From assembly GCA_018830565.1 (NCBI GenBank), contig JAHJRX010000045.1, forward strand, positions 10,626-74,625: a stretch of 64,000 nucleotides of DNA, in the 5' to 3' direction. The position numbers and the translations under genes are program-made. Source of the DNA: a bacterium (GTDB taxonomy: Bacteria; UBA9089; JAHJRX01). Position 1 is the stretch's first letter, and each line of letters starts with the position of its first letter. The notes under the pieces were generated by a model. That model was given only the letters and a program-made list of their open reading frames with translations. It searched no databases and was not told where the DNA came from. Below are positions 578 through 64,000 of this stretch, one piece after another.

Positions 578-1544
578 AAGATTAATCTTATCTTTAATGT
601 TCTCTCTTTTTTGTCTTAGCAATTGTGGAGAGAAATTATTTTCTAAAAAGTTTCTCTCTATCGGTACGGTAGTCGAGATTAAGGTGGTAGAAAAAGATAA
701 AGAAAAGGCTTGGAAAGCCATAGCTGCCGCTTGTAAAGAGATAAAACGACTTTCTGCCTTAATGAACAATTACGACGAAAAGAGCGAGATTTCTTTAATT
801 AATCAAAATAAAGGTCAAGGAATAAAAGTTTCAGAAGAAATTTTAGAAGTAGTCTCCCAAGCGATAGAATTTAGCAAATTAACCCACGGTGCTTTTGATA
901 TCACTATTTCTCCTGTTTTTAAATGTTGGAGCTTTAACAAAGAAAATCCCAAACTTCCTTTGATGGAGAAAATCTTAGAAGCCAAGAAGAAAGTAGGATC
1001 TCAAAATATCAAGATAGATCTTAAAAAAAAGGAGATCATTTTAGAAAAAGGAACAAGTTTAGATTTAGGAGGAATTGCTAAAGGTTATATTGTCAAGAAA
1101 GCTTGTGATAAATTAAGAGAGATGGGCATAACCAAAGGCTTAATAAATGCCGGAGGAAATATTCAAGTTATTGGAAGCAACATTAGAATGCCCTGGAAAG
1201 TAGGTATTCAAGATCCAAGAAACAAGAATAAGATTAAGAAAATAATAAAGATAACCGATAAAGGAGTAGCTACTTCTGGGGACTATGAGAAGTACTTTAT
1301 CTTAAATGGTCAGCGATATCACCATATCTTAGATCCTGAGACAGGATATCCAGCTAAGGAATGTATAAGCGTAACCATCATTGCTAAAGATGCTTTTTTA
1401 GCCGATATTTTATCCACCGGGATATTTGTTTTAGGCCCGGACAAAGGTTTAGCCTTAGTAAAAAAATTAAATGACATAGAATGTTACCTCATTACTTCTA
1501 AAAAAGAGTATGCTTCCTTTAGATTTAATGATTACTTGAGATAA
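564..1544 (+). CDS. apbE: FAD:protein FMN transferase (ApbE family), lipoprotein-type signal peptide
   Basis: ApbE-family motifs DLGGIAKGY, NAGGNI, ATSGDYEKYF and HHILDPETGYP; N-terminal signal with Cys; start may instead be the ATG at 597. Confidence 0.75.
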   Translation: MWWNKRLILSLMFSLFCLSNCGEKLFSKKFLSIGTVVEIKVVEKDKEKAWKAIAAACKEIKRLSALMNNYDEKSEISLINQNKGQGIKVSEEILEVVSQAIEFSKLTHGAFDITISPVFKCWSFNKENPKLPLMEKILEAKKKVGSQNIKIDLKKKEIILEKGTSLDLGGIAKGYIVKKACDKLREMGITKGLINAGGNIQVIGSNIRMPWKVGIQDPRNKNKIKKIIKITDKGVATSGDYEKYFILNGQRYHHILDPETGYPAKECISVTIIAKDAFLADILSTGIFVLGPDKGLALVKKLNDIECYLITSKKEYASFRFNDYLR

Positions 1545-1567
1545 AAATACAACTTTGGACCAGCAAA

Positions 1568-1915
1568 ATGTTAATAAAAAAAATTTTAATGATTATCTTG
1601 TTATCCTTGATCATTAATAATTGTGATTCTATTAGAGATAACTTAGTCTTTAGTGTCATTAAAATGAAAAGTCCTGCTCAAAAAGCAAAAGAAAACTATC
1701 TTAAGAAAGCTAATGATTGTATAAGATATAAAGAATATCAAAAGGCCGAACATTACCTAAAAAAAACTTTAGAAATTAACCCTCAAGACCCTACGATTTA
1801 TCAAAGGTTAGGAATGTTATATGAGCTAACGGGAAATGACGAAAAATCGATCTTATACTATTTAAAAGCTATTAAACTTGATCCTGGATTAAAAAAGTGG
1901 GAAGAAAGCCAATAA
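1568..1915 (+). CDS. small TPR-repeat lipoprotein
   Basis: Signal peptide with NC lipobox-like site; TPR-like helices (AEHYLKKTLEINPQDP, YYLKAIKLDP). Confidence 0.5.
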   Translation: MLIKKILMIILLSLIINNCDSIRDNLVFSVIKMKSPAQKAKENYLKKANDCIRYKEYQKAEHYLKKTLEINPQDPTIYQRLGMLYELTGNDEKSILYYLKAIKLDPGLKKWEESQ

Positions 1916-1930
1916 AGAAGAAAAAATAAA

Positions 1931-3034
1931 ATGCCTAAGAAGATATTTTGCATAGGATTATTCTTGTTATTTATTTCTAGTTGTCTGGCTTTGCCTAAAA
2001 GAGAAAGCTTACCAGTAACAAAAGAGACTAAGGAAGAAAAAAAGGATGATTTAAAGGAAGTAATTGCCAAAGAAGAAAAAATCAAGGAAGTAGAGTTACC
2101 ACCTTTAACCTTTAAAGACGAATCTACTGAAAAAGAGGCAAAAGAGAAAGTAAAAGAAGAAACTCCTACGGCTAAGGAAGAGACAAAAACCATCGTAGAA
2201 AAATTGCCAGAAGTTAAAAAAGAAGAAAAGATTGAGGAGAAAAAAGAAGAAAAGCCAATTCCAGAAGAGTTAAAAAAGGAGAAGATAGAAAAAAAGCCTC
2301 TCCAAGAGAAAGGTCTTCTCAAAAAAGAAGAAAAAATTTTACCTCAAAAAGCTCAAAAAGAACCTTCTTCCGAAGCACTAAAAATGATTGGAAGCGTCCC
2401 TGAAACTATTATTCCTCCGGAACAGTTAGATCGTTATAAATTTGCTAAAGATTTATATAAAAGAAATTTATATCCAGCTGCGGCTAAAGAAATGCAGAAA
2501 TTCCTTACTGATTTCCCCCAGACAAAGATAAGAGATGCCATCTCTTTCTTTATCGGTGAATGTTACTTTGCTAATAAAGAATATGATGCTGCCATCACAG
2601 AATTTAACAAGATCATTAAAAATTTTTCTGAAAGCGAATTTTTAGATAAGTGTCAACTAATGGTGGCTGAAACTTATAAAGAAAAAAAGGATATCGATAA
2701 CTCTTTATTGGAATACTTGCGATTAATTAACTTATATTCCAAGAGTCCGTACTGTCTTGAGGCTCAATTAGAAGTGGGTAATGCCTATCGAGAAAAGAAA
2801 GATTATAAGCAAGCCTTAGTTGAGTATGATAAGGTACTGGAGAAAGACCGTAAAAGCAAAGAATCTTCTACGGCCTTATACTACATAGCTGAGATTTATG
2901 ATTATGCGTATGAAGCAAGGGATTATATCAAAGCTTTATCAGCTTATAAGAAGATTGTTGAGCATTATCCTAAGAGTGAATGGACCGAAAAAGCTAAGAA
3001 GAGAATAAAATACTTAGAAGAGAATTATTTTTAA
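1931..3034 (+). CDS. lipoprotein with a K/E-rich low-complexity linker and a C-terminal TPR domain (YbgF/CpoB-like)
   Basis: Signal peptide plus Cys; long KEEK repeats; C-terminal TPR-type pattern. Confidence 0.5.
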   Translation: MPKKIFCIGLFLLFISSCLALPKRESLPVTKETKEEKKDDLKEVIAKEEKIKEVELPPLTFKDESTEKEAKEKVKEETPTAKEETKTIVEKLPEVKKEEKIEEKKEEKPIPEELKKEKIEKKPLQEKGLLKKEEKILPQKAQKEPSSEALKMIGSVPETIIPPEQLDRYKFAKDLYKRNLYPAAAKEMQKFLTDFPQTKIRDAISFFIGECYFANKEYDAAITEFNKIIKNFSESEFLDKCQLMVAETYKEKKDIDNSLLEYLRLINLYSKSPYCLEAQLEVGNAYREKKDYKQALVEYDKVLEKDRKSKESSTALYYIAEIYDYAYEARDYIKALSAYKKIVEHYPKSEWTEKAKKRIKYLEENYF

Positions 3035-3046
3035 AGAGAAGTATTT

Positions 3047-4330
3047 TTAATTAAATTTATACATAACTAAACCCGTCAGAAGCTTAGGATAGAAATAGGT
3101 AGATTTTTGCGGCATCAGTCCTCCTAAATTACTAATCTTCTCTACTTCTGCTATCTTAGTGGGGGTTAAAAAAAGACCTAATTGATATCTTCCTTCCTTA
3201 ATTAATTTTACTGCTTCTTCCATACTTCGAGTATAACCTATCTTATGTTCAACTTCTTCTTCTTTGATGTGTAAAATATTTTGGATAAAGATATGTTGCA
3301 ACACGGAAACAGCTAAATGATTTAAAGCCCAAGGTTGATCTTGGGGAGATAATTTATCAATTAGTTGGGGGTCTTTTAAGGTCAGTAAGTAAAATTTATC
3401 TTCTCCAAATAGACCAAAAATATAATTACTATTCTCCTTTTCCCTTAATCTTTGAGATAAAGCCAGAAGAGAAAAACAATCTTCTAAATGGAAGTATTCT
3501 TTGATCTTATCTTTTAAGGAATTAAGTTCTAAATTGCTTGAAATTAAGCGGTGGGTGGGTAAGATGGTCAATCCTTCATTTAAGATATTAGTAAAGTACA
3601 TCATAATAAAGTTTTCTGGACTATCGGGAGAGATTTGGTTAATTAATTGTCTTTGGTAGTTTAAAGCCGTTTGATAACGGTGATGGCCATCAGCAATAAA
3701 GATCTTTTTATCTTTCATTGCCTTTTGGATATTTTCCATTGTCTCTTGATCGCTTATTTTCCATACTTTATGCCTGATGCAATCTTCAAAGATTAAGTCG
3801 ATGAAAGGTGGTTTTTTTTCGATAAAATCGTTAATTATTTTTGGTATTTCTTGATGATAGTCTTGGTATAAAGAAAAGACCGGACTAAGGTGAGCCCGGC
3901 AATGGGATAGTAAATTAAGGCGATCTTCTATCGGCTTATGATGAGTTTTTTCATGAGGTAGTATTCTTTGAGAAGAGAAATCTTCTAATCTTAGCAAACC
4001 TATAAATCCAGCCAGTATCTTGGGAATATTATCAATATTATAAATTTTTTGGTAAGCATAAAAAGAAGGTCTTTGATCTAAAGTCAGGTATCCTTCTTCA
4101 AGCCAGTTATTAAGGTAATTAGAGGCTCGGGTGTACTTATTATACTCTGGGGTATCGTTAGGCAAATCTAAACCTTTGTCTAGATGGGCAATATTACAGG
4201 GATGTGATTTAATATATCTTTCTTGGTCTTGTTTAGAAATAACATCATAAGGAGGAGCCATAACTTGAGAAAAATTAGAAATCTTTTCCGAATTATATAA
4301 AATTCCCTTAAATGGTTTTACCTCGATCAT
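3047..4330 (-). CDS. DUF1015 family protein
   Basis: N-terminus MIEVKPFKGILYN...VMAPPYDVIS is the hallmark start of DUF1015 proteins. Confidence 0.6.
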   Translation of the reverse strand: MIEVKPFKGILYNSEKISNFSQVMAPPYDVISKQDQERYIKSHPCNIAHLDKGLDLPNDTPEYNKYTRASNYLNNWLEEGYLTLDQRPSFYAYQKIYNIDNIPKILAGFIGLLRLEDFSSQRILPHEKTHHKPIEDRLNLLSHCRAHLSPVFSLYQDYHQEIPKIINDFIEKKPPFIDLIFEDCIRHKVWKISDQETMENIQKAMKDKKIFIADGHHRYQTALNYQRQLINQISPDSPENFIMMYFTNILNEGLTILPTHRLISSNLELNSLKDKIKEYFHLEDCFSLLALSQRLREKENSNYIFGLFGEDKFYLLTLKDPQLIDKLSPQDQPWALNHLAVSVLQHIFIQNILHIKEEEVEHKIGYTRSMEEAVKLIKEGRYQLGLFLTPTKIAEVEKISNLGGLMPQKSTYFYPKLLTGLVMYKFN

Positions 4331-4676
4331 AACAACGAACTCCTTCAGTTTTTTATTATTTAGCTTATTTTTTTGAGTATTTTTGAATATAAATTTTGAG
4401 TAATTTTAAGTATAAGTAAGATATAATAAGTAGCCATTTATGTCAAATATTAATTTATATCTTCTATTTGTTCAACTGAACGCTTACTTAATAAGGAGAT
4501 AAACAATGATTAAAGGATTTTTCGAAAAACTACATAGGATAAACTATTTAAGGGGCTGATATGACTTTATTAAATCTTTGATTACCTTTAAAGTTTCAAA
4601 ATTAGAAGAGATAGTTAAATCTTTATTTCTGCCCCAAAAGTCAGAGATTGTGAATTAAAGAAGGTAAACCACAAGC

Positions 4677-5840
4677 TTATTCTTTAAATTTATTAAAATA
4701 AAATAGATCTAACAAAACACAAAAGTCACTTCCTTCTTTATCTTTTAAATTAAATTGATAAGCACCTTTATAATTGCCATAACCTACCGCTAAGCCAATG
4801 TTCCAATGTTTAGCTAAAATATACCTCAAACCAAGTAGTAAACCATCATTTAATTCTGTGGTAAATTTAAGATTCTTAGTTAAGTTATAATCTACTCCTC
4901 CAAATAACCAATAAGGAACTACTTTAAGCCCAAGATGAATATTAAAAGTATCAATATTTTGAGTAAATACCCCATACAAGAGAGGAGCAAAAGACCGGCT
5001 GGGACCCAGAGCATAATTTGCAAAAAGACCTATTCCCACAGCTGGCGTCCAACCTAAGATATTTTGTCTGGGAATTTGCCATTTAAGGCCAGGAATGATT
5101 AATTCTATATTATTTCCCATACCTATTTCTGCATGAGGAAATCCAAGTCGATAATCGTTTTCATCTAAAACAAAGGCAGTCGGGATAGAAAACAACCAAG
5201 AAGGCTTTGAGGCAATCGGAATAATTTCTTCTTGATAAGCTTTCTCTCTTTCTCTTAGAGAAGATTTCTTAGGAGATTTTTCTTGATAAGACTTTTCTGG
5301 AGATGGCTTAGGAAGAGGTTTTTTTCCTGGAACTTCTTTTAATTCCTTTTCTGGGTCGTAATATTCTCGGTAACGGATATCTTCTTTTACTGGTTTTTGG
5401 TCAAATTCTACTTCTTCTTCCCCATAATCTTTTAAGAAATTCCTTTGGTAGTCTTCTTCAGAAGGATAATCTTTTTCGGGCTTGTACTCTTTAAATTCAT
5501 ATTCTTCTTTTTTTTTGCTTTTAGGTTCTACGCCCTTTTCTTCTGAAGGAGTCTCTTTTTTCGATGGTTTCTCTTTGATGAGATCATAGTATTCAGTTTC
5601 CCAATCTTGAGGGTATTCTTCCTCAGGTGATTCAGTTTTAAATGGCTTTTTTGGACTTTCTAAATCAAGATCCTCATCTTCATAGAGTTGAAATCCTCTT
5701 TCTCTTAAATCTTTGGTATCGAACGATGGATCATTTAATTCATATTCTTCAAGATCTTGAGCCAGTACAAATAAAGGAGTATAAATAATAAAGAGAAAGA
5801 TGGTTATAGAAATCATTTTTTTTAACATAATTTCTCCCAA
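4677..5840 (-). CDS. hypothetical secreted/outer-membrane protein with an acidic K/E/Y-rich disordered region and a beta-rich C-terminal half
   Basis: Signal peptide; low-complexity charged region; C-terminal alternating hydrophobic pattern suggests a barrel-like fold; no recognisable family. Confidence 0.35.
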   Translation of the reverse strand: MGEIMLKKMISITIFLFIIYTPLFVLAQDLEEYELNDPSFDTKDLRERGFQLYEDEDLDLESPKKPFKTESPEEEYPQDWETEYYDLIKEKPSKKETPSEEKGVEPKSKKKEEYEFKEYKPEKDYPSEEDYQRNFLKDYGEEEVEFDQKPVKEDIRYREYYDPEKELKEVPGKKPLPKPSPEKSYQEKSPKKSSLREREKAYQEEIIPIASKPSWLFSIPTAFVLDENDYRLGFPHAEIGMGNNIELIIPGLKWQIPRQNILGWTPAVGIGLFANYALGPSRSFAPLLYGVFTQNIDTFNIHLGLKVVPYWLFGGVDYNLTKNLKFTTELNDGLLLGLRYILAKHWNIGLAVGYGNYKGAYQFNLKDKEGSDFCVLLDLFYFNKFKE

Positions 5841-6010
5841 AAAATTTATTTTTAAAGACTAGAAAAATTATATCAGAAATAAAATTTTATGCCAACAAAA
5901 ATAACAAAAATGCGTGATTGCCTCTTCAAGGCTTGGTTCTTTTAATCTCTTTTGAGCAGTTAGCCAAACAATTATTAATCTATTTGAGGCAATGAGTTAA
6001 TCATTATAAA

Positions 6011-6105
6011 CCGGACATAGGAAATAATACCGAGCAATAAAAGATAAACTCATTGGCACTTAAATTAATTTGCTCTAAGTCAAATTTTCATTAATAGGTG
6101 CTATA
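6011..6105 (+). repeat. intergenic repeat element, copy A (family of at least 5 copies)
   Basis: About 95 bp nearly identical to 8026-8100 and 32704-32798; core hairpin AATTTG-CTCTAAGT-CAAATT. Confidence 0.8.
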
Positions 6106-6140
6106 ATTTGAATTAGTAAGTTATCTCATTCCCAAGAATC

Positions 6141-7937
6141 TTAAGTAATCTTATCTTTCAATATCGATAACATTTTCTTTAATCGATGAAGATAGGTATG
6201 TTCTTCCAAGACCTTTTTATGAAAAGCTTCAGCAATCTTCCTTCTTTCTTCTGGGTGGTAAAGAAAATAAATTATCTTTTCTCTTAACTCATTATTATTT
6301 TTATAAAAGATAACTTCTGTATCTTTGGAGAATAAATTAACTAAGTCTTCTCGATAATCGCTTAACATAAACCCACCACAACCACCTATATCAAATACTC
6401 GCATATTAATAGCTGTCCGAAGTTGAGAAACCGTAATATTTAAGTTTATCTCAGAGGCATTGTATAGTCTTGGTAATTCACTTCTATTGTGGATATAGCC
6501 ACCATACTTTACACCTTCTTGTTTAACTTCTAACCATCCTTTATCTCCATAAACTTTTACTCCGAGGTCAGCAATAGCTCTGATTGTATTTTTACGGTAT
6601 TTTCGCATGCTTATGCAATCAATAATTTCTAAATGATTAGAAACTCTTTCTTTTAAATATTCCTTATACTCAAGAGAAATATCCTTAATTACTCCTTCTT
6701 GCTCTTGAATATCTATTAATAGATCTAAGATAGATAGAGTAGGGTCTTGGCTTAATGTCTTTATTAACTTATCTACTACTTTTTTTGAAAACATTTCGTT
6801 AAAAAGGGCTCTGTGTTTTTTGTACATTTTAGTAGCATAAGGGTCAGCCAGCATTCCGGCAAAACTTATTCCACCTGCATATCTTTCTTTGTCTTCTTTA
6901 CTTAATTCCATCCTTTTAAAAATCTTTGGGTTAGTGGCCAAAGGAAGGTAGTAAACATGCTCATATCCCATATCGTTAAGTTCTTTAATATATGTTTTAT
7001 CCCACATAAATATAAAGAAAAGTGGATCTGGCTTAAAGATAGTAGAGATCGAAACAGGAGCATCTGCAAACCAGGAAACATAAGGGATTTTAAATCTTTT
7101 TATTACTTCTAAGATAAACTTTAAACCAACACAAGTAACGGTAAAAATAAAATTAGGCTTTATTTCCTCTATGGCTTTTTCTGCAATTAAAGCGATGTTT
7201 TTCTCATTTAAGAGATTTTTTTCTCTATCGAGGACAAACTTGTTTAAATCAATCACATATACTTCTTGATCTAATTCTGATAAAGCAGCTAAAGAATCTT
7301 CTAAAATATATCTTGTTCCACTTAAACGAAAGTCCATAAAAGAGATGATCTTTAATCTTTTTTTAAGAGTCGTTATTTGGTGGTAAGCTGATTCTAAAAT
7401 CATCTTTTCTAATTTGAGGTAATAATCAGGAAAGGCTCTTTGGCAACCTTCGGTAGAAATTACTTTCGTATTTCCTATGCTTCCTATCAAGTTAAAAGAT
7501 TCTTCAATTTCAAGGCCGGCCAAAAGTCTTACTTTTGTCGAAGTAAGAAGATCTTTGTAATCGAAGAGATAAAGGGAATGGTAGAATAATTCTACCTCTT
7601 TCTCGATGACCACTATTTCTTGAAAAGGCTTGACTCTTTTCATTAATTCAAAGAGTACATAGCCAAAACCTAACCCTAATAAGATAATCTTTTGACAAGT
7701 TTCAAATTCTATCCTGGAGAATGTTTTTTCTGCTTCCCGAGATGGATTAATAGGACTATGTATCCAGATAAGTGCTTCTTTTTCATCAGGGTATTGACCA
7801 GTAATTTGAAGATTCTTGGCTGGTTTTATAATAGCCAGGGGAGTAGCTTTATTAAGCTTTTCTATCTTTTGGAATAAAACCGGTTCCTTTTCTTTAAGGA
7901 GAATGAGGTTTTTTTCTAAGTATTGAGAAGCTTCCAT
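6141..7937 (-). CDS. glycosyltransferase: Maf-like N-terminal Rossmann-type region plus CgeB/DUF3880-type (GT1-like) C-terminal domain
   Basis: N-terminal IILLGLGFGY resembles the Maf N-terminal motif; C-terminal VFDIGGCGGFMLSDYREDL...EEHTY matches the CgeB-family GT domain; bracketed by repeat copies A and B. Confidence 0.5.
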   Translation of the reverse strand: MEASQYLEKNLILLKEKEPVLFQKIEKLNKATPLAIIKPAKNLQITGQYPDEKEALIWIHSPINPSREAEKTFSRIEFETCQKIILLGLGFGYVLFELMKRVKPFQEIVVIEKEVELFYHSLYLFDYKDLLTSTKVRLLAGLEIEESFNLIGSIGNTKVISTEGCQRAFPDYYLKLEKMILESAYHQITTLKKRLKIISFMDFRLSGTRYILEDSLAALSELDQEVYVIDLNKFVLDREKNLLNEKNIALIAEKAIEEIKPNFIFTVTCVGLKFILEVIKRFKIPYVSWFADAPVSISTIFKPDPLFFIFMWDKTYIKELNDMGYEHVYYLPLATNPKIFKRMELSKEDKERYAGGISFAGMLADPYATKMYKKHRALFNEMFSKKVVDKLIKTLSQDPTLSILDLLIDIQEQEGVIKDISLEYKEYLKERVSNHLEIIDCISMRKYRKNTIRAIADLGVKVYGDKGWLEVKQEGVKYGGYIHNRSELPRLYNASEINLNITVSQLRTAINMRVFDIGGCGGFMLSDYREDLVNLFSKDTEVIFYKNNNELREKIIYFLYHPEERRKIAEAFHKKVLEEHTYLHRLKKMLSILKDKIT

Positions 7938-8025
7938 CTTAAGACCTGAAGTCTAATGATATAATAATAGTATAATTAAATAATATTATAATTAAAGATA
8001 CTATAGTAATTATTAACAAAAATTA

Positions 8026-8100
8026 GACATAGGAAATAATGCCGAGCAATAAAAGATAAACTCATTGGCACTTAAATTAATTGGCTCTAAGTTAAATTTT
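8026..8100 (+). repeat. intergenic repeat element, copy B
   Basis: Near-identical to copy A over about 75 bp; lies in the divergent promoter region between the 6141-7937 (-) and 8260 (+) genes. Confidence 0.8.
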
Positions 8101-8259
8101 AACTAATGAGTATTATATCACAAAAATTTTATAAATAAGTAGAATTGCTGTGCAATTTTCATATTTAGCTTGACAAATTCTAAAAAAACTTGCTTATTTA
8201 AAAATAATTTAGTATACTTTATAAAAGTAAAAGTTTTTGAAAGGAAACTTTAAGCTACC

Positions 8260-9660
8260 ATGAAAAACATAAAAAAGATAATATTAATAGAACCTAAATC
8301 TCCTGACCGTCATATCTTTGGACAAGCTTGTATGCCTCGCTTAGGACTTCCTATTTTAGGTACGATCTTAAAAGAAAAAGGGCATGAAGTGAGAATTTAT
8401 TGTCAGGATATCAAGAAGATAAATTATAGCGATGTTTTCTCAGCAGACTTAGTAGGAATTTCTACTACTACCTCTACTGCTCCTGAAGGCTACTTAATTG
8501 CTGATAAGATAAAAGCACATCATAGTAAAATTCCTGTTGTTATAGGAGGTGCTCATGCTACCTTTCTTCCAGAAGAAGCTCTAAGTCATTGTGACTATGT
8601 GATTAGAGGAGAAGGAGAGTATGTCTTTCCAGAACTTATCGAAGCCTTGGAAAACCATTGCACGGTAAGAAATATTAAAGGTTTATCTTACACAGAAGGA
8701 ACAGTCCCCGTCCATAATCCAGGTTATCCTAAACCTGTTTCCTTGGACCATCTTCCCATTCCTGATTTTTCTTTAGTTCTAGAAAGAGAAAAGATGACCG
8801 TTACTCCTATTTCTACTTCTCGTGGCTGTCCTTTCCATTGTAGTTTTTGTTCAGTAACTCCAATGTTTGGAAAAAAGTATCGCTTTCGAAACACTGATTT
8901 AGTTATAGAAGAGATAAAAAGAGATAAAAAAAAGAGGATCTTTTTTTACGATGATAACTTTACGGCAAACAAAACACGGAGCAAAGTACTTTTAGAAAAG
9001 ATGTTAGAAAATAATTTACGTCCTGAGTGGATGGCTCAAGCACGAGTTGATGTTGCAAAAGATAAAGATTTGTTAAAACTTATGCAAAAGACCAATTGTT
9101 TTATAGTCCAAATTGGGTTTGAGTCCATTAATCCCCTCACTTTAAAATCATATAATAAAGGGCAAACAGTAGAAGAAATAGAAGAAAGCATTATGATTTT
9201 ACACCAATACAAGATTAAAATACATGGTATGTTCATGTTTGGCTCAGATGATGACGAGATAGAGACTCTTAAACAAACAGTTAAATTTGCTAAAAGACTT
9301 AAGCTTGATACAATTCAATTTTTAACTTTAGTTCCTTTTTGTGGAACTAAAGTTTATTCTGATTTAGATGCCGCCGGGAGGATCTTTACTAAAAATTGGG
9401 TACTCTATGATGGTCATCATGTGGTATTTGAACCAAAAAAAATGAGTCCTTTTGAACTTCAAATAGAAACTTTTAAAGCCATGAAAAAATTCTATTCTTT
9501 ATGGCGTTGTTTAAAATCATTTTGGAAGGGTAAGTCCTTTACTGCTATGGCCAGATATTGGGGAAATAGAACCTTAAAGAAATGGGGAAAGGACCATAAG
9601 CCGCTCTTTGACCAGCTAAAACTCTTTAGCCGCAAGCTTAAGATTAATCGAAAAGTTTAA
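8260..9660 (+). CDS. B12-binding domain-containing radical SAM protein (class B rSAM)
   Basis: N-terminal cobalamin-binding Rossmann-like region; CxxxCxxC motif TSRGCPFHCSFCSV. Confidence 0.7.
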   Translation: MKNIKKIILIEPKSPDRHIFGQACMPRLGLPILGTILKEKGHEVRIYCQDIKKINYSDVFSADLVGISTTTSTAPEGYLIADKIKAHHSKIPVVIGGAHATFLPEEALSHCDYVIRGEGEYVFPELIEALENHCTVRNIKGLSYTEGTVPVHNPGYPKPVSLDHLPIPDFSLVLEREKMTVTPISTSRGCPFHCSFCSVTPMFGKKYRFRNTDLVIEEIKRDKKKRIFFYDDNFTANKTRSKVLLEKMLENNLRPEWMAQARVDVAKDKDLLKLMQKTNCFIVQIGFESINPLTLKSYNKGQTVEEIEESIMILHQYKIKIHGMFMFGSDDDEIETLKQTVKFAKRLKLDTIQFLTLVPFCGTKVYSDLDAAGRIFTKNWVLYDGHHVVFEPKKMSPFELQIETFKAMKKFYSLWRCLKSFWKGKSFTAMARYWGNRTLKKWGKDHKPLFDQLKLFSRKLKINRKV

Positions 9661-9668
9661 CTTTGAGG

Positions 9669-9742
9669 TGGGGAGTCGTCTAGGGGTAGGACACAAGACT
9701 CTGGATCTTGCTGCGAGGGTTCGAATCCTTCCTCCCCAGCCA
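9669..9742 (+). tRNA. tRNA-Gln (anticodon CTG)
   Basis: Hand-folded cloverleaf: acceptor TGGGGAG/CTCCCCA, 3-bp D stem typical of tRNA-Gln, anticodon stem CAAGA/TCTTG with loop CTCTGGA, T-loop TTCGAAT, CCA encoded. Confidence 0.8.
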
Positions 9743-9747
9743 AAAAA

Positions 9748-9823
9748 GGCGCTATCGTCTAGAGGCCTAGGACAGGTGGTTCTCAGCCATCAGACCGGGG
9801 TTCGAATCCCCGTAGCGCTACCA
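9748..9823 (+). tRNA. tRNA-Glu (anticodon CTC)
   Basis: Acceptor GGCGCTA/TAGCGCT (G1-U72 wobble), D arm TCGTCTAGAGGCCTAGGAC as in bacterial tRNA-Glu, anticodon loop TTCTCAG, T arm CGGGG-TTCGAAT-CCCCG, CCA encoded. Confidence 0.8.
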
Positions 9824-11618: not shown

Positions 11619-12050
11619 ATGGAAGATTACCAAGACATAGATAATTTGAGAAAGATAGAAAAAGCAAGATATCAAGTCAAACAAGAAATGTTCTTATCTC
11701 ATAAAAGTTCCTTGTTAGCTGTCTTATTTTCTATGCTTATTCCAGGTGGAGGCCAAATATATGCTCATGCCTTTATCAAAGGATTCTTGTGGCTTTCCTT
11801 CTTTTTAGTCCTTACTTCCTTAAACTTTGGTATTAAGAAGATAATCTTACCCATTGCTTCCCCTCTAAACATATTTATTTCATTAATTAATATCTTTTTA
11901 TGGCTTTTTATTCTTTATGATGCTCATAGGAGTGTAAAATTATATAATCTAGGTAAGGCTTCTTTTTTAACTCGTCAAATGATCATCTTCTTAATTATCT
12001 TTGAAATTATTATTCTCCTAATATTAAGCATGATTGGTAGATTAGTATAA
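11619..12050 (+). CDS. small integral membrane protein (TM2-like GGGQIY motif)
   Basis: Three or four predicted TM helices. Confidence 0.35.
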   Translation: MEDYQDIDNLRKIEKARYQVKQEMFLSHKSSLLAVLFSMLIPGGGQIYAHAFIKGFLWLSFFLVLTSLNFGIKKIILPIASPLNIFISLINIFLWLFILYDAHRSVKLYNLGKASFLTRQMIIFLIIFEIIILLILSMIGRLV

Positions 12051-29178: not shown

Positions 29179-29536
29179 TGCCTTAGTAGGAAAATTTCAT
29201 TTGAATGCCACCAAAATTAAGCAATTTTTCTTTCCTGTAAAATCAAAAAGTTATTGCCTTCAGAAAAAAGTTCATTCTTCTGGGCTTCTTTTGTCTAAAA
29301 CTCCCCGTATTCATCCCAATCATTGCTTTTTGCTACTGAACGTAACTTCAGAATTAATTCAGCCCCACTAATTCCCCAGCAGGCCATTGATATTCCCATT
29401 CTATTCTTAACAATATGCCTACATGTTGACTTAACAACACCAGAACCTATCGGATGACCTCGGACTAAATATAGCCCTTATACCAAATTGCAATCAAATG
29501 TATAATAACAATTCGGTATAAATATGAAAAAACGGT

Positions 29537-29607
29537 TAAATCCGAATATCGAAATCCGAAATACGAAACAAATCCGAATACCAAAATTCAAAATCCAAAA
29601 CAATAAG
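29537..29607. repeat. degenerate tandem (AAATCCGAA-TA-CG)n array, about 14-bp period, 5 units
   Basis: Direct inspection; about 200 bp upstream of pseB. Confidence 0.6.
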
Positions 29608-31659: not shown

Positions 31660-32697
31660 ATGAATAAAATAATCTTTCGAACTGATGGAGGGGGGAATGT
31701 TGGGTTAGGACATCTTAGTCGGTGCCTAAGCCTAGCTGAAAGCTTAAAGGAAAAAGGTATCAAGTGTGTATTTGCCACCAAGGATATTGATTCAAAGATA
31801 GGAGGAATGATTGTTAGTAATGGTCACTTAATAGAAAAATTACCCTCAGAAATAAGCTTAGAAGAAGATTTAAACTTAACTATTAATTTGATTAAAAACA
31901 TCCGCCCTGATTTGGTAATTACTGATTCTTATGAGATTGATCAGTCTTATCTTGAACAATTAAAAAAATTAAATATTATTTTGATGAGTATCGATGATTT
32001 GGCAAAGTTGCATTTCTGTTCTGATATAGTGCTTAATCAAAACATTGGTGCCCAAAATAGTGATTATTCGATAGAAAAATATACCAAGCTATTGTTAGGA
32101 CCAGAATATGCCCTTTTAAGGAAGAAGGCTAGGGATAAACAGGGACTTAAGGAGATAAAAGAAATAGCTAAGAATATCTTGATCACCCTTGGTGGAACCG
32201 ATCCAGATAATCAAACCCTAAAAATAGTTAAGGCACTTAAGGATATCAAGAATAATATTGTGGTTACTGTGATTATGGGGCCTCATTATCAATACGAAGA
32301 ACTTCTTAGAAAAGAGATTGGAGTAAGTAACCAATTTTTCCTTGTGAGTGACCCTCAAGATATCTTTGACTTAATGGAAAAGGCAGATATGGCCGTCAGT
32401 GCCGGTGGGAGTACCTGCTATGAATTGGCCTATCTTGGGGTACCGAATATCATTATGGTCATGGCAGATAACCAGAAAAAGATTGCCGAGGAATTAGATA
32501 GCTACGGCACCTCTATAAACTTGAATTGGTTTGAAGATGTTACTGAAGAATATATCAAAAAGGCAGGAGAAAATTTGATTAAAGATAGAAATAAACGAGA
32601 AAAGATGAGCACGAAAGGCAGAGAGTTAGTTGATGGAAGAGGCGTAGAGAGGGTAGTAGAGGAGATTACAAAGCAAATCAATAGAGTTAGTTATTAA
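31660..32697 (+). CDS. pseG: UDP-2,4-diacetamido-2,4,6-trideoxy-beta-L-altropyranose hydrolase (PseG, GT28/MurG-like fold)
   Basis: N-terminal FRTDGGGNVGLGHLSRCLSLAESL matches the PseG signature. Confidence 0.75.
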   Translation: MNKIIFRTDGGGNVGLGHLSRCLSLAESLKEKGIKCVFATKDIDSKIGGMIVSNGHLIEKLPSEISLEEDLNLTINLIKNIRPDLVITDSYEIDQSYLEQLKKLNIILMSIDDLAKLHFCSDIVLNQNIGAQNSDYSIEKYTKLLLGPEYALLRKKARDKQGLKEIKEIAKNILITLGGTDPDNQTLKIVKALKDIKNNIVVTVIMGPHYQYEELLRKEIGVSNQFFLVSDPQDIFDLMEKADMAVSAGGSTCYELAYLGVPNIIMVMADNQKKIAEELDSYGTSINLNWFEDVTEEYIKKAGENLIKDRNKREKMSTKGRELVDGRGVERVVEEITKQINRVSY

Positions 32698-32703
32698 CGA
32701 AAA

Positions 32704-32798
32704 CCGGACATAGGAAATAATACCGAATAACAAAAGATAAACTTGTTTGGAGTTAAATTAATTTGCTCTAGGTCAAATTTTCATTAATAAGTGCTATA
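32704..32798 (+). repeat. intergenic repeat element, copy C (between pseG and pseI)
   Basis: About 90% identical to copies A and B; hairpin stem retained, loop base changed. Confidence 0.8.
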
Positions 32799-32819
32799 GA
32801 GAGTCAATAGAGAAGAGCG

Positions 32820-59514: not shown

Positions 59515-60507
59515 ATGCCCGGAGAAAAAATCTTAATTGTTGACGATGATCTAGAAATAGCTTTGGTCTTGAAAGCAATCTTTGAAAAAGAGAACTTTAG
59601 GCCTTATGCAGTTAATAATGGAAAGGAAGCTGTGGAATTAGCCAGGACATTATTTCCAGATCTAATTATTTTAGATATCCTTATGCCTAAGATTAGTGGT
59701 TATGAGGTATGTAAAAAACTACGGCATGATTTTCATACCAGTCATATTCCCATTATTGTTTTATCCGTTAAAGATCATACTCTTGACAAGATCAAAGGAT
59801 TAAAGATAGGAGCAGATGATTATGTCACTAAACCATTTAGTAGTGAAGAATTAGTAGCTCGGATTAAAGCGGTCTTACGTCGGACTCATTTAGAAAGGGA
59901 TTGTAACCCTTTAACTCAATTACCAGGAAATCTGGCGATTGAACATCAAATTAAGAATAGATTAAACTTAGGATTGCCCTTTGGTTTTATGTATGCAGAT
60001 TTAGATAATTTTAAACCTTTTAATGATTATCATGGATATAGTAGGGGAGATTTAGCCATTAAACTTTTAGCTAATATTATCTTAAGTTCGATAAAAAAGC
60101 ATGGAAATTTGGATGACTTTGTAGGTCATATCGGGGGAGATGATTTTATTATTATTACCCGAAAGATAGAGTCTATCGAGGATATTTGTAAGAATATTAT
60201 CGAGAATTTAAAAGTATCTTCCCTTGATCTCTTTGGCCAAAAAGATCGTCAGCAAGGCTATTTTGAAATACTTGATCGCCGAGGAAATGCTAAAAAGTTT
60301 CCTGCCCGTTTAGACATTACTATTGCTATTACCTCTAACCAATATGCAAGCTTTACTAACTCTTTACAGATTAGTGATACTTTAGCTGAAATAAAGAAGT
60401 ATGGCAAACAAGTAGAAGGAAGTGTTTTCATTATTGATCGCAGGGAAAAAAAGAAAATTACTAAACTTACAGATGTTATAGTACCGATTAATGAAAATTT
60501 GACTTAG
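59515..60507 (+). CDS. response regulator with REC domain plus GGDEF-type domain carrying a GGDDF motif (paralog 1)
   Basis: REC motifs DDD/D53-like/K; GGDEF-domain landmarks NPLTQLPGN, ADLDNFKPFNDYHGYSRGD, GHIGGDDF. Confidence 0.7.
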   Translation: MPGEKILIVDDDLEIALVLKAIFEKENFRPYAVNNGKEAVELARTLFPDLIILDILMPKISGYEVCKKLRHDFHTSHIPIIVLSVKDHTLDKIKGLKIGADDYVTKPFSSEELVARIKAVLRRTHLERDCNPLTQLPGNLAIEHQIKNRLNLGLPFGFMYADLDNFKPFNDYHGYSRGDLAIKLLANIILSSIKKHGNLDDFVGHIGGDDFIIITRKIESIEDICKNIIENLKVSSLDLFGQKDRQQGYFEILDRRGNAKKFPARLDITIAITSNQYASFTNSLQISDTLAEIKKYGKQVEGSVFIIDRREKKKITKLTDVIVPINENLT

Positions 60508-60545
60508 AGCAAATTAGTTTGACTCCAAACGAGTTTATCTTTTAT
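60486..60545 (-). repeat. intergenic repeat element, copy E (reverse orientation), overlapping the last 7 codons of paralog 1
   Basis: Reverse complement matches the core of copies A and C, including the AATTTG-CTCTAAGT-CAAATT hairpin. Confidence 0.75.
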
Positions 60546-60576
60546 TACTTAATATCATTATTCCAAAACAACTACT

Positions 60577-61536
60577 ATGCCATTTCAAAAGGATAATATG
60601 GCTGGCGAATTAATATTATTAGTAGATGATGAAGTAGATATGCTTAATCTTTTAAAAAGCTTCTTCATGGAAAATGGTTATTCCTGTATAGAAGCTCAAA
60701 GCGGTATTCAAGCTCTTGAAATTGCTCGAATGATTCATCCTGATTTGATTGTTTTAGATATTATGATGCCTCATATGGATGGCTTTGTTGTATGTCAAAA
60801 GCTAAAGAATGATTATGTGACCAGTCATATTCCTATTGTGCTTCTTACTGTAAAAAGAGAAACTTCTGATCGGGTAAAAGGCTTAGAATTAGGGGCTGAT
60901 GATTATATAGCTAAACCATTTGATCTTTCTGAGCTCTTGGCTCGAGTTAAAGCGGTCTTACGTCGGACTCATTTAGAAAGGGATTGTAACCCTTTAACTC
61001 AATTACCAGGAAATCTGGCTATTGAACATCAAATTAAGAATAGATTAAAGAATGATACTCCTTTTGCCTTTTTATATGCCGACATAGATGATTTTAAGTT
61101 TTTTAATGATTATTATGGATATAGTAGGGGTGATTACGCCATTAAGACTTTTTCTAATGTGATCTTGTCTTCGATAAGAAAGCACGGAAGTTCAGAGGAT
61201 TTTGTAGGTCATATCGGGGGAGATGATTTTATTGTTATTACTAAGTTAGAGGCAGCTATTGACATTTGTAAAGACATTATTGAAAATACTGCCTTTTCTA
61301 TACCTCAATTATTTGATGAAGAAGATCTAAAGAGAGGTTATTTTGAAACCTTGACCCGAAGAGGAAAGAAAAAAGTTGCTGCTAATCTTACCGTGACTAT
61401 TGCAGTAACTACTACTGAATACAGTCAGTTTGAAAATTCCATGGAAATAAGTAGCATCTTAGCAGCGCTAAAACGTTATGGGAAGAACAAAGGTGGCAAT
61501 CTTTATGTAGTAGATCGGCGAAAAAAAGTTAGATAG
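60577..61536 (+). CDS. REC-GGDEF(GGDDF) response regulator, paralog 2
   Basis: Same architecture as paralog 1; shares a 100-nt near-identical patch with paralog 1. Confidence 0.7.
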   Translation: MPFQKDNMAGELILLVDDEVDMLNLLKSFFMENGYSCIEAQSGIQALEIARMIHPDLIVLDIMMPHMDGFVVCQKLKNDYVTSHIPIVLLTVKRETSDRVKGLELGADDYIAKPFDLSELLARVKAVLRRTHLERDCNPLTQLPGNLAIEHQIKNRLKNDTPFAFLYADIDDFKFFNDYYGYSRGDYAIKTFSNVILSSIRKHGSSEDFVGHIGGDDFIVITKLEAAIDICKDIIENTAFSIPQLFDEEDLKRGYFETLTRRGKKKVAANLTVTIAVTTTEYSQFENSMEISSILAALKRYGKNKGGNLYVVDRRKKVR

Positions 61537-62541: not shown

Positions 62542-63252
62542 ATGATTATTGCGCAGCAAAAACCAATTCAAGAAATAGAGGCGATGGTGGCTGGTTACCA
62601 GAAAATTTTAGTGGTTGGTTGTGGTACTTGTGTTACAGTTTGCATGGCTGGTGGAGAAAAGGAAGTAGGCATTATGGCTTCTTGTTTACGAATGTCCTTA
62701 AGATTGGCTGGGAAAACCCCAGAAATTATTGAGGAATGTATTCAACGGCAATGTGAGTGGGAATTTGTAGATGAGTTAAAGGATAAAGTAGCCAGGGTAG
62801 AAGCCATAATTTCTTCTGCTTGTGGAGTAGGAGTACAAGCACTGGTGGAACGATTTAGTAATAAGCCAATTTATCCAGCTCTTAATACCAGCTTCATGGG
62901 ACTTCCCCAAGAGCCTGGTTTTTGGTTAGAAACCTGTCGGGGTTGCGGAAATTGTGGCTTAGGTAAATTTGGCGGTATTTGTCCTATTGCTCGTTGCTCA
63001 AAGACATTACTTAATGGTCCTTGTGGTGGCAGCCAGAATGGTAAATGCGAGATAGATAAAGAGATGAATTGCGGCTGGCAGTTAATCTACCAACGACTAA
63101 AAGCATTAGGGCAGATTAATCAGATAGAGGAGATAGTTTTACCTAAAGATTGGTCCACAGATAGAGATAAAGGACAACGAAGGATAGTCAGAGAAGATGT
63201 CTATTCTAATAGTTATAACGAAAACCAGACATTAAGAAATAATACCAAGTAA
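62542..63252 (+). CDS. metV: MetV-like protein (methylenetetrahydrofolate reductase C-terminal-domain / zinc-ribbon iron-sulfur protein)
   Basis: Cys-rich motifs GCGTCVTVCMAGGE and CRGCGNCGLGKFGGICPIARCSK; immediately precedes metF. Confidence 0.6.
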   Translation: MIIAQQKPIQEIEAMVAGYQKILVVGCGTCVTVCMAGGEKEVGIMASCLRMSLRLAGKTPEIIEECIQRQCEWEFVDELKDKVARVEAIISSACGVGVQALVERFSNKPIYPALNTSFMGLPQEPGFWLETCRGCGNCGLGKFGGICPIARCSKTLLNGPCGGSQNGKCEIDKEMNCGWQLIYQRLKALGQINQIEEIVLPKDWSTDRDKGQRRIVREDVYSNSYNENQTLRNNTK

Positions 63253-63256
63253 TAAA

Positions 63257-63338
63257 AAATAAACTTCAAGGGCTACCTTGTTTGGAGTTAAAAATTAATT
63301 TGCTCTAGATCAAATTTTTTCATTAATAGGTGCTCTAT
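63257..63338 (+). repeat. intergenic repeat element, copy D, abutting the metF start codon
   Basis: Matches the 3' two-thirds of copies A to C; hairpin stem intact, loop base changed. Confidence 0.75.
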
Positions 63339-64000
63339 ATGAACAGACCGTTTAAGGAAGTTCTAAAATCAGGTGAGTTTGTAGTTACTTCAGAGATTGG
63401 GCCTCCCAAAGGAACTAATATTGAGAAGATGATGCATCACATAGAGATGCTAAAGGATAAAGTCCATGGAATGAATGTGACCGATAATCAATCGTCAGTG
63501 ATGAGGCTTTCTTCTTTGGCCACCTGCCATCTCATTAAAGACCACGGCGGTGAGCCCATTTTGCAAATGACTTGTCGTGATCGTAATCGGATGGCTTTAC
63601 AATCTGATTTGATTAGTTCTCATGTTTTAGGTGTTCATAATGTTCTTTGTCTGACTGGCGACCATATCAGTTTGGGTGATCATAAAGGAGCTAAACAAGT
63701 CTTTGATTTAGATTCAGTTCAATTGATTACTACAGTAAGGACATTGGAGCAAGGTAGAGATATTGGTGGAAACGCCCTTGATGGAACAGTAGAGTTTTGT
63801 CTGGGGGCTACGGTTACACCTGAAGCTGATCAGATGGAATCACAATTATTAAAGTTTCGCAAAAAAGTTAAAGCTGGGGCAGAGTTTTTCCAGACTCAAG
63901 CAGTTTATGATCTGAATAAACTAAGGATGTTCACGGAGTATGCCCATCAATTTAAGGTAAAGATCTTAGCCGGAATTTTAGTTCTTACCTCGGCAGGTAT
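63339..64000 (+). CDS. metF: methylenetetrahydrofolate reductase, N-terminal part (3' end outside the window)
   Basis: ATG at 63339 with an open frame to the window edge; TIM-barrel MTHFR pattern (EIGPPKG, LQMTCRDRN, CLTGDH); not in the ORF track because no stop lies inside the window. Confidence 0.7.
   Translation, partial: MNRPFKEVLKSGEFVVTSEIGPPKGTNIEKMMHHIEMLKDKVHGMNVTDNQSSVMRLSSLATCHLIKDHGGEPILQMTCRDRNRMALQSDLISSHVLGVHNVLCLTGDHISLGDHKGAKQVFDLDSVQLITTVRTLEQGRDIGGNALDGTVEFCLGATVTPEADQMESQLLKFRKKVKAGAEFFQTQAVYDLNKLRMFTEYAHQFKVKILAGILVLTSAG

What the first reader, a model, noticed from the sequence alone, without database searches (positions are those of the whole stretch)
6011..8100. Direct copies of a ~95-bp hairpin-containing repeat bracket the Maf/CgeB-like glycosyltransferase gene
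Copies A (6011-6105) and B (8026-8100) are over 90% identical, lie in the same orientation, and flank a single 1.8-kb glycosyltransferase gene. Recombination between them would excise or duplicate the gene, which is a plausible on/off or copy-number switch for a glycosylation function. Copy B also occupies the divergent promoter region shared with the B12-radical SAM gene.
Basis: seen in the sequence. Interest (0 to 1): 0.7.

Follow-up and report, generated by a model that had tools for sequence, protein, structure and literature searches.

The report
Small mobile-element repeats bracket a strain-variable gene
The two repeats are copies of a ~118-bp transposon-like element scattered through this uncultured bacterium's genome, and a sister strain lacks exactly the repeat-to-repeat segment that carries the glycosyltransferase gene, which is a familiar way for bacteria to gain or lose a gene rather than a proven on/off switch.

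Summary
Copies A (5990-6108) and B (8001-8120) are direct repeats, 90% identical over a 92-nt core, and they flank the CgeB/Maf-like glycosyltransferase gene (6141-7937, minus strand).

They belong to a dispersed family of ~118-bp elements with a ~21-bp terminal inverted repeat (MITE-like). The window holds five copies, and at least 13 other sites lie on other contigs beside unrelated genes. No RNA covariation was found and there is no Rfam match.

At least five junction-spanning assemblies of a sister strain (~98.7% identical) place the two flanking genes 420 bp apart with one element copy and no glycosyltransferase gene. The window has 2431 bp there. The difference, ~2.01 kb, equals the A-to-B spacing.

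This indicates homologous recombination between the copies. Whether the gene was lost or gained is unresolved. Each state is tied to its own strain background, so reversible switching is not supported. The radical SAM promoter-like block lies outside copy B.

The element's 5' end resembles the Neisseria Correia repeat (21 of 23 positions, one 2-nt gap) but fails the published strict criterion.

Verdict: a new member of a known kind, of modest interest.

The parts
5990..6108 (+). Copy A of the ~118-bp MITE-like element. Its 5' (outer) end is degenerate and its 3' (inner) end is consensus-like (AGGTGCTATA).
6141..7937 (-). Strain-specific CgeB/Maf-like glycosyltransferase gene (598 aa), NCBI MBU2599687.1. 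It is present only in the window haplotype.
   Evidence: Pfam; singleton 90% cluster; nearest homologues 31-36% identical; absent from the sister strain
8001..8120 (+). Copy B of the element. Its 5' (inner) end is consensus-like (TATAGTAATTATTAACAAAAA) and its 3' (outer) end is degenerate (GAGTATTATA).
6014..8025 (.). The ~2.01-kb repeat-to-repeat unit (one element copy plus the gene) that is present in the window and absent from the sister strain.
   Evidence: spacing of 2012; intergenic 2431 bp vs 420 bp; L001 alignment
6049..6061 (+). Internal block CTCATTGGCACTT, shared only by A and B (B: 8061-8073). Among the 14 full-length copies aligned, the others have different blocks here (GGAGTT, GCCCTC and so on). 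This indicates duplication or gene conversion between A and B.
4677..5828 (-). Left flanking gene (383 aa, no Pfam family). It lies directly next to the radical SAM gene in the Maf-less strain.
8260..9660 (+). Right flanking gene, a B12-binding radical SAM protein. Its promoter-like block at 8190-8218 lies outside copy B.
32684..32801 (+). Copy C. It fills the spacer between the PseG-like gene and NeuB, and the stop codon of the upstream gene lies inside it.
60473..60580 (-). Copy D (5'-truncated), between two response-regulator/GGDEF genes. The stop codon of the upstream gene (60505-60507) lies inside it.
63204..63339 (+). Copy E, with a 13-nt internal insertion, between the two MTHFR genes. 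It contains the upstream gene's stop codon (63250-63252). Its 3' end supplies the AGGTG Shine-Dalgarno sequence and abuts the ATG at 63339.

Best explanation
A and B are two copies of a dispersed, non-coding, ~118-bp miniature inverted-repeat element. Its ends are TATAGTAGTTATTAACGAAAA ... TTTTCATTAATAAGTGCTATA, and it sits in intergenic spacers throughout the genome of an uncultured, unclassified low-GC bacterium. Because the two copies are in direct orientation 2 kb apart, they act as homology for recombination. One crossover between them removes exactly one copy plus the CgeB/Maf-like glycosyltransferase gene. The reverse reaction with a circular or incoming DNA would add it.

The population holds both states as a strain-level presence/absence polymorphism. 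I consider deletion from an A-Maf-B ancestor somewhat more likely (about 55%) than gain (about 35%).

Shown: the repeat family, its inverted-repeat ends, its dispersal, and the two alleles with a single copy at the Maf-less junction. Inferred: RecA-type homologous recombination as the mechanism, the direction of the event, and transposition as the origin of the family.
For: Family and anatomy. The window has five copies. There are 16 matching stretches in three JGI metagenomes, giving at least 13 further sites. The ends are sharp, with a 19-pair inverted repeat that pairs in 83.5% of cells against 41-55% when the partner is slid.

Dispersal. The neighbours are UPF0182, a sigma54 regulator and histidine kinase, M23 peptidase and ThyX, a SIS-CBS protein, RnfG/RnfE, Memo, Wzy_C, CorA, HypA and HypE.

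Variant. L001 aligns to window 12039-8020 and then to 6095-4446. L019, L020/L021, L022, L023/L024 and L025 come from NCBI MAGs, ENA assemblies and JGI metagenomes. All have the 383-aa gene next to the radical SAM gene with the same single-copy junction in an otherwise identical spacer (420 bp; L020's gene call starts 12 bp later). GenBank protein numbers are consecutive in two of these MAGs.

Junction. The junction copy has A's degenerate 5' end and B's degenerate 3' end, and at sites 1-3 and 5-8 it always equals either A or B.

Substrate. A and B share a 41-nt exact run. recA is present at 58395-59453.

Strain background. The two strains form a mosaic of 100%-identical and 2-3%-divergent patches, which suggests ongoing homologous exchange.

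Precedent. Correia elements are recorded as recombination hotspots associated with gene loss by deletion, and porA was deleted by recombination between repeat clusters (PMC2649163).
Against: The junction copy's internal block (CTTGTTTGGAGTTAA) matches neither A nor B, which share CTCATTGGCACTT. At least one extra gene-conversion event is therefore needed.

Only two haplotypes exist, and the outgroups lack both the element and the left-hand synteny. The direction cannot be polarised.

The pattern of intact inner ends and degenerate outer ends is what integration of a circle carrying an intact copy into an old degenerate copy would produce. This favours gain.

No empty site, target duplication or parent transposase was found for the family. 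Copies C, D and E are fixed in both strains. 'MITE' therefore rests on anatomy, not on observed mobility.
Confidence: 0.8

Rival explanations
1. Gain, not loss. The ancestral locus had one old, degenerate element copy (as in the sister strain). A circular or transformed DNA carrying an intact element copy plus the glycosyltransferase gene then integrated by homologous recombination with it, which created A and B.
For: Both inner ends (A's 3' end, B's 5' end) are consensus-like, while both outer ends, which are the ones the single junction copy has, are degenerate. The Maf-less state is the common one, found on 11 contigs (six of which show the two flanking genes adjacent) against one MAG plus fragments. 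Neither outgroup has a gene between the radical SAM gene and its upstream neighbour. The Maf protein is an orphan, with nearest homologues at 31-36% identity.
Against: This is the mirror image of the deletion, so the mosaic of the copies cannot distinguish the two. The gene's GC content (31.9%, GC3 26.7%) is typical of the genome. Any donor must carry the same element family, which was not found in the GTDB representative genomes or in the outgroup. No donor locus or circle junction was seen.
Confidence: 0.35
2. A programmed, reversible on/off or copy-number switch for glycosylation, in which cells of one clone flip between states.
For: Direct repeats flank one surface-glycan gene and both states exist in nature. 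Such genes are often variable.
Against: Each state is linked to its own haplotype, ~1.3% apart. Every contig carrying the window-type flanking proteins is Maf-plus or uninformative, and every contig carrying the other type is Maf-minus. No recombinase gene lies next to the locus. Deletion by homologous recombination cannot be reversed without the excised circle. No tandem duplication was seen. The one odd contig (L122) is explained by a 38-nt repeat and the k=31 assembly.
Confidence: 0.05
3. A composite transposon. Two element copies mobilise the gene between them, with a transposase acting in trans on the outer ends (as in TIME-COMP or IMU structures).
For: Two copies in direct orientation bracket a single cargo gene. 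MITE-bounded composites are known (PMC13367494, listed).
Against: The allele without the gene keeps one element copy, whereas a composite insertion would leave an empty site. The outer ends, which a transposase would have to use, are the degenerate ones. No transposase with matching ends was found.
Confidence: 0.03
4. The element is mainly a functional RNA or regulatory module (a small RNA, terminator or leader), and its repetition reflects function rather than mobility.
For: Copies fill whole spacers inside operons. Copy E supplies the ribosome-binding site of the MTHFR gene. The core is highly conserved, and an invariant AATTTG/CAAATT hairpin is followed by a T run. Copies C, D and E are kept in both strains.
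Against: RNAalifold gives -0.78 kcal/mol with no compensatory pair. Covariation in the terminal stem equals that of shuffles, and changes break pairs. The hairpin never varies, so it is uninformative. Single-copy folds have z-scores from -0.3 to -3.0. There is no Rfam family at gathering score, and only a chance-level miRNA hit at E = 0.37. Copies occur in both orientations relative to their neighbouring genes.
Confidence: 0.1
5. Assembly artefact. The Maf-less contigs are mis-joins across a collapsed repeat.
For: A and B share a 41-nt exact run. Short-read assemblers break or jump at such repeats: L018 and L120 end inside the repeats, and L122 is probably a k=31 chimera.
Against: The same junction is found in JGI, ENA (k141) and NCBI assemblies from different samples. 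Its internal block is present in neither A nor B. The flanks carry the other haplotype's SNPs. The Maf protein has no variant anywhere in those samples (singleton cluster).
Confidence: 0.02

Closest known systems
Correia repeat-enclosed elements (CREE / nemis) of Neisseria
   Same: Both are small non-coding elements of similar size: about 118 bp here, 104-108 or 153-157 bp for CREE. Both have terminal inverted repeats of ~21-26 bp that start with TATAG. Both lie in intergenic spacers, often inside transcription units, with many dispersed copies. CREE are recorded as recombination hotspots linked to gene loss by deletion (PMC2649163). The family consensus 5' end, TATAGTAGTTATTAACGAAAACCGG, aligns from base 1 with Correia variant TATAGTGGATTAACAAAAACCGG at 21 of 23 aligned positions with one 2-nt gap. 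The score is 29, against a null maximum over 128 kb of shuffles with mean 23 and maximum 28.
   Different: It fails the published search criterion of at most 3 mismatches without gaps (0 hits). The 3' end is much less similar (score 12-14). The host is an unclassified deep-branching bacterium, not Neisseria. I could not compare the interior because no full Correia sequence was available. The TA target duplication, IHF site, promoter creation and RNase III processing are untested. The resemblance was noticed after the fact, so its significance is overstated by the raw score.
Deletion of surface-structure genes by recombination between dispersed repeats (for example porA deletion between REP clusters in N. 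meningitidis) and 'minimal mobile elements'
   Same: An accessory cell-surface gene sits between conserved genes and is present or absent among closely related, recombining strains. Short dispersed repeats lie at the breakpoints (references listed).
   Different: Here a single ~118-bp element pair with one remaining copy defines the breakpoints exactly. The organism is uncultured and its competence is unknown. The direction (loss or gain) is unresolved.
MITE-bounded composite transposons (TIME-COMP, integron mobilisation units)
   Same: Two copies of a miniature inverted-repeat element in the same orientation bracket a cargo gene (PMC13367494 and PMC4133298, listed).
   Different: The gene-less allele retains one copy, and the outer ends are degenerate. 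The gene therefore did not move as a transposon.
REP/REPIN elements mobilised by RAYT transposases
   Same: Short, abundant intergenic repeats with inverted symmetry.
   Different: This element has a ~75-nt asymmetric conserved core between 21-bp ends, whereas a REPIN is two short palindromes. Correia-type sequences did not yield REPINs in the REPIN study. No RAYT gene was looked for systematically.

Membership tests
Bacterial MITE (miniature inverted-repeat transposable element) | Small (under ~300 bp) and non-coding | tested here: met
   Copies are 108-136 bp. Their boundaries are sharp in a 15-copy alignment.
Bacterial MITE (miniature inverted-repeat transposable element) | Terminal inverted repeats | tested here: met
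   19 pairs, 83.5% of cells paired against 41-55% when slid by 1-3 columns. The consensus arms match at 18 of 21 positions (read directly).
Bacterial MITE (miniature inverted-repeat transposable element) | Many dispersed copies at unrelated loci | tested here: met
   5 copies in 64 kb, and at least 13 other sites beside unrelated genes. A genome-wide count is not available.
Bacterial MITE (miniature inverted-repeat transposable element) | Target-site duplication | tested here: inconclusive
   Many copies read TA|TAG...CTA|TA. The genome is 33% GC and no empty site was found for comparison.
Bacterial MITE (miniature inverted-repeat transposable element) | Insertion polymorphism or other sign of mobility | tested here: not met
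   Copies C, D and E are at the same sites in both strains. By contrast, a different small element (family 2) is polymorphic.
Bacterial MITE (miniature inverted-repeat transposable element) | Autonomous parent element with the same ends | tested here: not met
   The only IS seen has unrelated ends. The terminus pattern gives 0 hits in viral contigs. Whole genomes could not be searched further.
Correia repeat-enclosed element (CREE) | 26-28-nt Correia repeat at the ends, at most 3 mismatches to one of four variants (criterion in PMC9778887 and PMC5039591) | tested here: not met
   0 matches in the window at up to 3 mismatches. The gapped alignment gives 21/23 at the 5' end only.
Correia repeat-enclosed element (CREE) | TA target duplication | tested here: inconclusive
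   Terminal TA is frequent but not diagnostic.
Correia repeat-enclosed element (CREE) | Conserved core with CCGGTACGG and TCAGGACAA ends, and an IHF site in long forms | not tested
   No full-length Correia sequence was available to compare (one search found none).
Correia repeat-enclosed element (CREE) | Found only in Neisseria | tested here: not met
   RecA is at most 70% identical to any GTDB representative and the MAGs are labelled only 'bacterium'.
Programmed phase-variation switch by excision or inversion | Both states occur in the same genetic background | tested here: not met
   Maf-plus occurs only with window-type flanking proteins and Maf-minus only with the other type.
Programmed phase-variation switch by excision or inversion | A dedicated recombinase next to the switch | tested here: not met
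   The neighbours are a protein of unknown function, DUF1015, a radical SAM protein, tRNAs and DUF5667.
Composite transposon bounded by MITEs | The empty site lacks the element, and the composite is flanked by a target duplication | tested here: not met
   The Maf-less allele keeps one copy.
Structured non-coding RNA family | Conserved secondary structure with compensatory changes, or an Rfam match | tested here: not met
   RNAalifold gives -0.78 kcal/mol and 0 compensatory pairs. Covariation equals that of shuffles. Rfam finds only tRNAs at gathering score, and a chance hit at E = 0.37.

The most novel reading that the evidence does not exclude
The element is a true relative of the Neisseria Correia element, sharing the same still-unidentified transposase lineage, in a deep-branching uncultured bacterium. 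Pairs of such copies would then serve as portable homology arms, letting recombining strains reversibly gain and lose single surface-glycan genes.
Probability: 0.2. Interest if true: 0.55.

Novelty: new member of a known kind. Interest (0 to 1): 0.35.

Why it matters
This is a clean natural example, in an uncultured lineage, of a short dispersed repeat defining both breakpoints of a gene presence/absence polymorphism in a cell-surface glycosylation function. The two co-occurring strains also differ by a truncated PseH-like acetyltransferase, so surface-glycan diversification between strains appears to be under way.

If the similarity of the ends to Correia repeats reflects common descent, these elements are not confined to Neisseria. 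A second host might then help identify what mobilises them. The mechanism of repeat-mediated gene loss or gain is itself well known.

Tried and rejected
1. The GTDB representative genome scan for the element core gave 0 hits. The RecA scan gave nothing above 70% identity, so there is no taxonomic placement.
2. Sigma-54 promoter idea: TGGCAC occurs in A and B, but the spacing to TTGC is 5 nt too long and other copies lack it (read directly from the sequence).
3. The window's 432-aa ORF as a transposase: it is ThiC.
4. The IS in the sister strains as the parent of the element: its ends are unrelated.
5. Outgroups to polarise gain versus loss: the left-hand neighbour is not homologous and the element is absent.
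6. Maf paralogue in the window as a source of the gene: none at E < 1e-3.
7. L122 as a third structural variant: explained by a 38-nt exact repeat shared with the argB upstream region and the k=31 assembly.
8. Literature search for the sample and assembly accessions: 0 papers.
9. Full-length Correia sequence from a 1987 paper: not present in the stored text.
10. Viral contig scan for the terminus: 0 hits.
Full report
**Observation**

The repeat is real. The repeat finder reports 6014-6105 and 8026-8117 as a 92-nt direct repeat, 90% identical, spaced 2012 bp start to start. Equivalent matches never arose in shuffled sequence. Between the two copies lies a single ORF, 6141-7937 on the minus strand (598 aa). 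It matches Pfam Glyco_trans_1_2 (3.5e-34), Maf_flag10_N (1.4e-10) and DUF3880 (2e-10). BLASTN and a profile search find five copies in the window: A 5992-6108, B 8001-8120, C 32687-32801, D 60473-60580 (minus strand) and E 63204-63339.

**What the element is**

An alignment of 15 copies with flanks shows sharp boundaries and a consensus of about 118 nt. It starts TATAGTAGTTATTAACGAAAA and ends TTTTCATTAATAAGTGCTATA, and the two ends are inverted repeats of each other.

- The 19 terminal pairs are complementary in 83.5% of cells, against 41-55% when the partner is slid by 1-3 columns. Covariation is no higher than in shuffles, and changes break pairs instead of being compensated.
- RNAalifold finds essentially no consensus fold (-0.78 kcal/mol, no compensatory pair).
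- Rfam finds only two tRNAs in the window at gathering score, and one chance-level hit on the element.
- A 6-7-nt internal block is hypervariable among copies.

This is the anatomy of a miniature inverted-repeat transposable element, not of a selected RNA structure. Mobility itself was not shown. Copies C, D and E sit at the same sites in the sister strain. No empty site, unambiguous target duplication or parent transposase was found.

**Distribution**

A scan of the GTDB representative genomes with the element core found nothing. The metagenome scan found 16 stretches in three JGI metagenomes. After removing overlaps with the window and duplicate loci, at least 13 further sites remain, some of them truncated copies. 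Their neighbours are UPF0182, a sigma54 response regulator and a histidine kinase, an M23 peptidase and ThyX, a SIS-CBS protein, RnfG and RnfE, a Memo-like protein, Wzy_C, CorA, a methyltransferase, HypA and HypE.

Within the window:

- Copy C fills the PseG-like/NeuB spacer.
- Copy D lies between two response-regulator/GGDEF genes.
- Copy E lies between the two MTHFR genes. It contains the upstream gene's stop codon and supplies the downstream gene's Shine-Dalgarno sequence.

The family therefore has no specific tie to glycosylation genes. The density of five copies per 64 kb would extrapolate to a hundred or more copies per genome, but this was not measured. The contigs have 31-37% GC and come from the same metagenomes as the sister strain, although they were not proven to belong to the same genome.

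**The structural variant**

Contig Ga0180008_1004840 (L001) aligns at ~98-99% identity to window 12039-8020 and then directly to 6095-4446. It skips the glycosyltransferase gene and keeps one element copy.

The window's radical SAM protein has one near-identical variant (P0122), found on 11 contigs. In L019 (GCA_043814425.1), L020 (ERZ27247128), L021 (GCA_018818825.1), L022 (JGI 3300014656), L023 (GCA_018816215.1) and L024 (JGI 3300014613), the 383-aa gene lies directly beside the radical SAM gene. The spacer sequence is identical in all six (420 bp; in L020 the gene call starts 12 bp later, giving 432 bp), and L025 covers the same junction. In the window that spacer is 2431 bp. The difference equals the A-to-B spacing. 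GenBank protein numbers confirm the adjacency in two MAGs (MBU0899510/MBU0899511 and MBU1153458/MBU1153459), against three consecutive numbers in the window's MAG.

An assembly artefact is very unlikely for three reasons. The same junction recurs across assemblers and samples. Its internal block occurs in neither A nor B. Its flanks carry the other haplotype's SNPs.

**Mechanism and direction**

The junction copy (J) has A's degenerate 5' end and B's degenerate 3' end. At the other diagnostic sites it equals either A or B, except for the internal block. There J has the family-typical CTTGTTTGGAGTTAA, while A and B share CTCATTGGCACTT, a block not seen in any of the other full-length copies aligned. 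That shared block shows A and B have exchanged sequence, by conversion or by duplication.

One remaining copy at the junction is the signature of homologous recombination between direct repeats, or of its exact reverse. It is not the signature of transposition of a composite unit, which would leave no copy. A and B share a 41-nt exact run, and recA is present in the window.

Deletion and Campbell-type integration are mirror images, so the mosaic cannot give the direction.

- For gain: the inner ends are intact and the outer ends degenerate, the Maf-less state is the common one, and the gene is an orphan with nearest homologues at 31-36% identity.
- For loss: deletion is a one-step event, the gene's composition is native (GC 31.9%), and any donor would have to carry the same lineage-restricted element.
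- The outgroups, at 73-75% radical SAM identity, have neither the element nor the left-hand gene.

I put loss at about 55% and gain at about 35%.

**Is it a switch?**

The two states are tied to two haplotypes that differ by ~1.3%. The divergence is a mosaic of identical and 2-3%-divergent patches, suggestive of recombining strains. All contigs carrying the window-type flanking proteins are either Maf-plus or end inside the repeats.

One Logan contig (L122) is identical to window 677-5961 and then runs into argB. The normal argB upstream region carries a 38-nt exact repeat of window 5924-5961, next to a truncated element copy. A k=31 chimera therefore explains L122. Nothing supports reversible switching or copy-number change. 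Testing that needs reads.

**Promoter claim**

Copy B does lie in the divergent spacer. The radical SAM gene's promoter-like block (TTGCTT, 17-nt spacer, TATACT, 8190-8218), whose ACTTGCTT motif recurs in the outgroups without the element, lies outside it. The consensus scan finds no more promoter-like sites in 5800-8300 than in shuffles, and the best one (5895-5867, minus strand) serves the 383-aa gene.

**Comparison with known systems**

The closest known kind is the Correia repeat-enclosed element of Neisseria. It is 104-108 or 153-157 bp long, has 26-bp inverted repeats and a TA target, and is recorded as a recombination hotspot associated with gene loss by deletion (PMC2649163).

The literal Correia repeats are given in two papers. 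The family consensus 5' end aligns from its first base at 21 of 23 positions with one 2-nt gap. The score is 29, against a null maximum with mean 23 and highest value 28 over 128 kb of shuffles. The 3' end is far less similar, and the published criterion of at most 3 mismatches gives no hit. I noticed the resemblance after the fact. I therefore treat it as a lead: the element works like a Correia element, but it is not shown to be a member of that family.

Repeat-mediated loss of surface genes and 'minimal mobile elements' in Neisseria are the functional precedents. Composite MITE transposons are excluded by the single-copy junction.

**Verdict**

The locus is a new member of a known kind: a dispersed MITE-like repeat whose two direct copies bound a strain-level gene presence/absence polymorphism. 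Interest is modest, at 0.35.

Noticed in passing
window 12042-12050 (empty site) and 58192-58319; L001 513-633; L019 9800-9920: A second, unrelated small element of ~128 bp, with ends TTGTAAC...GTTACAA and flanked by AAAAAG on both sides. It is inserted after ORF 11619-12050 in the sister strain but absent there in the window. The window has a copy 84% identical at 58192-58319. This is a true insertion polymorphism, unlike family 1.
   Followed up: partly
window 58308-58347; L035 about 1885-3310: Sister-strain contigs L035-L037 carry a ~1.4-kb IS-like insertion between LigT and RecA. It encodes a 432-aa HTH_23/28/29 protein and has subterminal inverted repeats (AAATGAAAATGTCCTA / TAGGACATTTCTATTT). 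L038 has the empty site with one copy of the 17-mer AAGATTTTAATATTGCT. The window has no IS but has two copies of the 17-mer separated by GTAACA, which looks like a retained duplication or an excision footprint.
   Followed up: partly
window 5924-5961; L123 about 4840-4900; L122 junction: A 38-nt exact repeat (55 nt at 93%) lies just left of copy A and also upstream of argB in the sister strain, next to a truncated reverse copy of the family-1 element. It probably caused a chimeric Logan contig (SRR6514730_4822) that joins the 383-aa gene to argB.
   Followed up: yes
window 33874-34215 vs L032 4055-4723: The PseH-like GNAT acetyltransferase is 113 aa in the window but 222 aa in the sister strain. 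The sequences are identical up to ~34187, after which the window jumps to the formyltransferase start. The C-terminal half has been deleted. This is a second strain difference in glycosylation genes.
   Followed up: partly
window 32684-32697, 60473-60507, 63204-63252 and 63320-63341: Element copies overlap coding ends. The stop codons of the PseG-like, GGDEF and MTHFR C-terminal genes lie inside copies C, D and E. A 1-nt indel in copy C changes the PseG-like C-terminus (345 vs 350 aa between strains). Copy E supplies AGGTG and abuts the ATG of the MTHFR gene.
   Followed up: partly
alignment columns 82-96 of A3; window 6049-6061, 8061-8073, about 32742-32753: A 6-7-nt block inside the otherwise well-conserved element is hypervariable among copies (GGAGTT, GCCCTC, GCTCTC, GGGTAT, AAAGTT, GCCATC, GCACTT). 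No partner segment covaries with it. This is unexplained.
   Followed up: no
window 6099-6107: The 3' end of copy A plus its flank reads TGCTATAAT, an extended -10 motif. It faces into the 3' end of the glycosyltransferase gene (antisense). This resembles the way Correia ends create promoters. It is the only such site in the window and is untested.
   Followed up: no
window 9669-9823: tRNA-Gln(CTG) and tRNA-Glu(CTC) lie just downstream of the radical SAM gene. In the outgroup L029 this position holds a GT61-type glycosyltransferase gene instead, so the neighbourhood varies in glycosyltransferase content across relatives.
   Followed up: no
window 29180-29640: The long non-coding stretch after thiC holds short AATCCGAA-like tandem repeats (~29520-29600) and possibly a gene remnant on the minus strand.
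   Followed up: no
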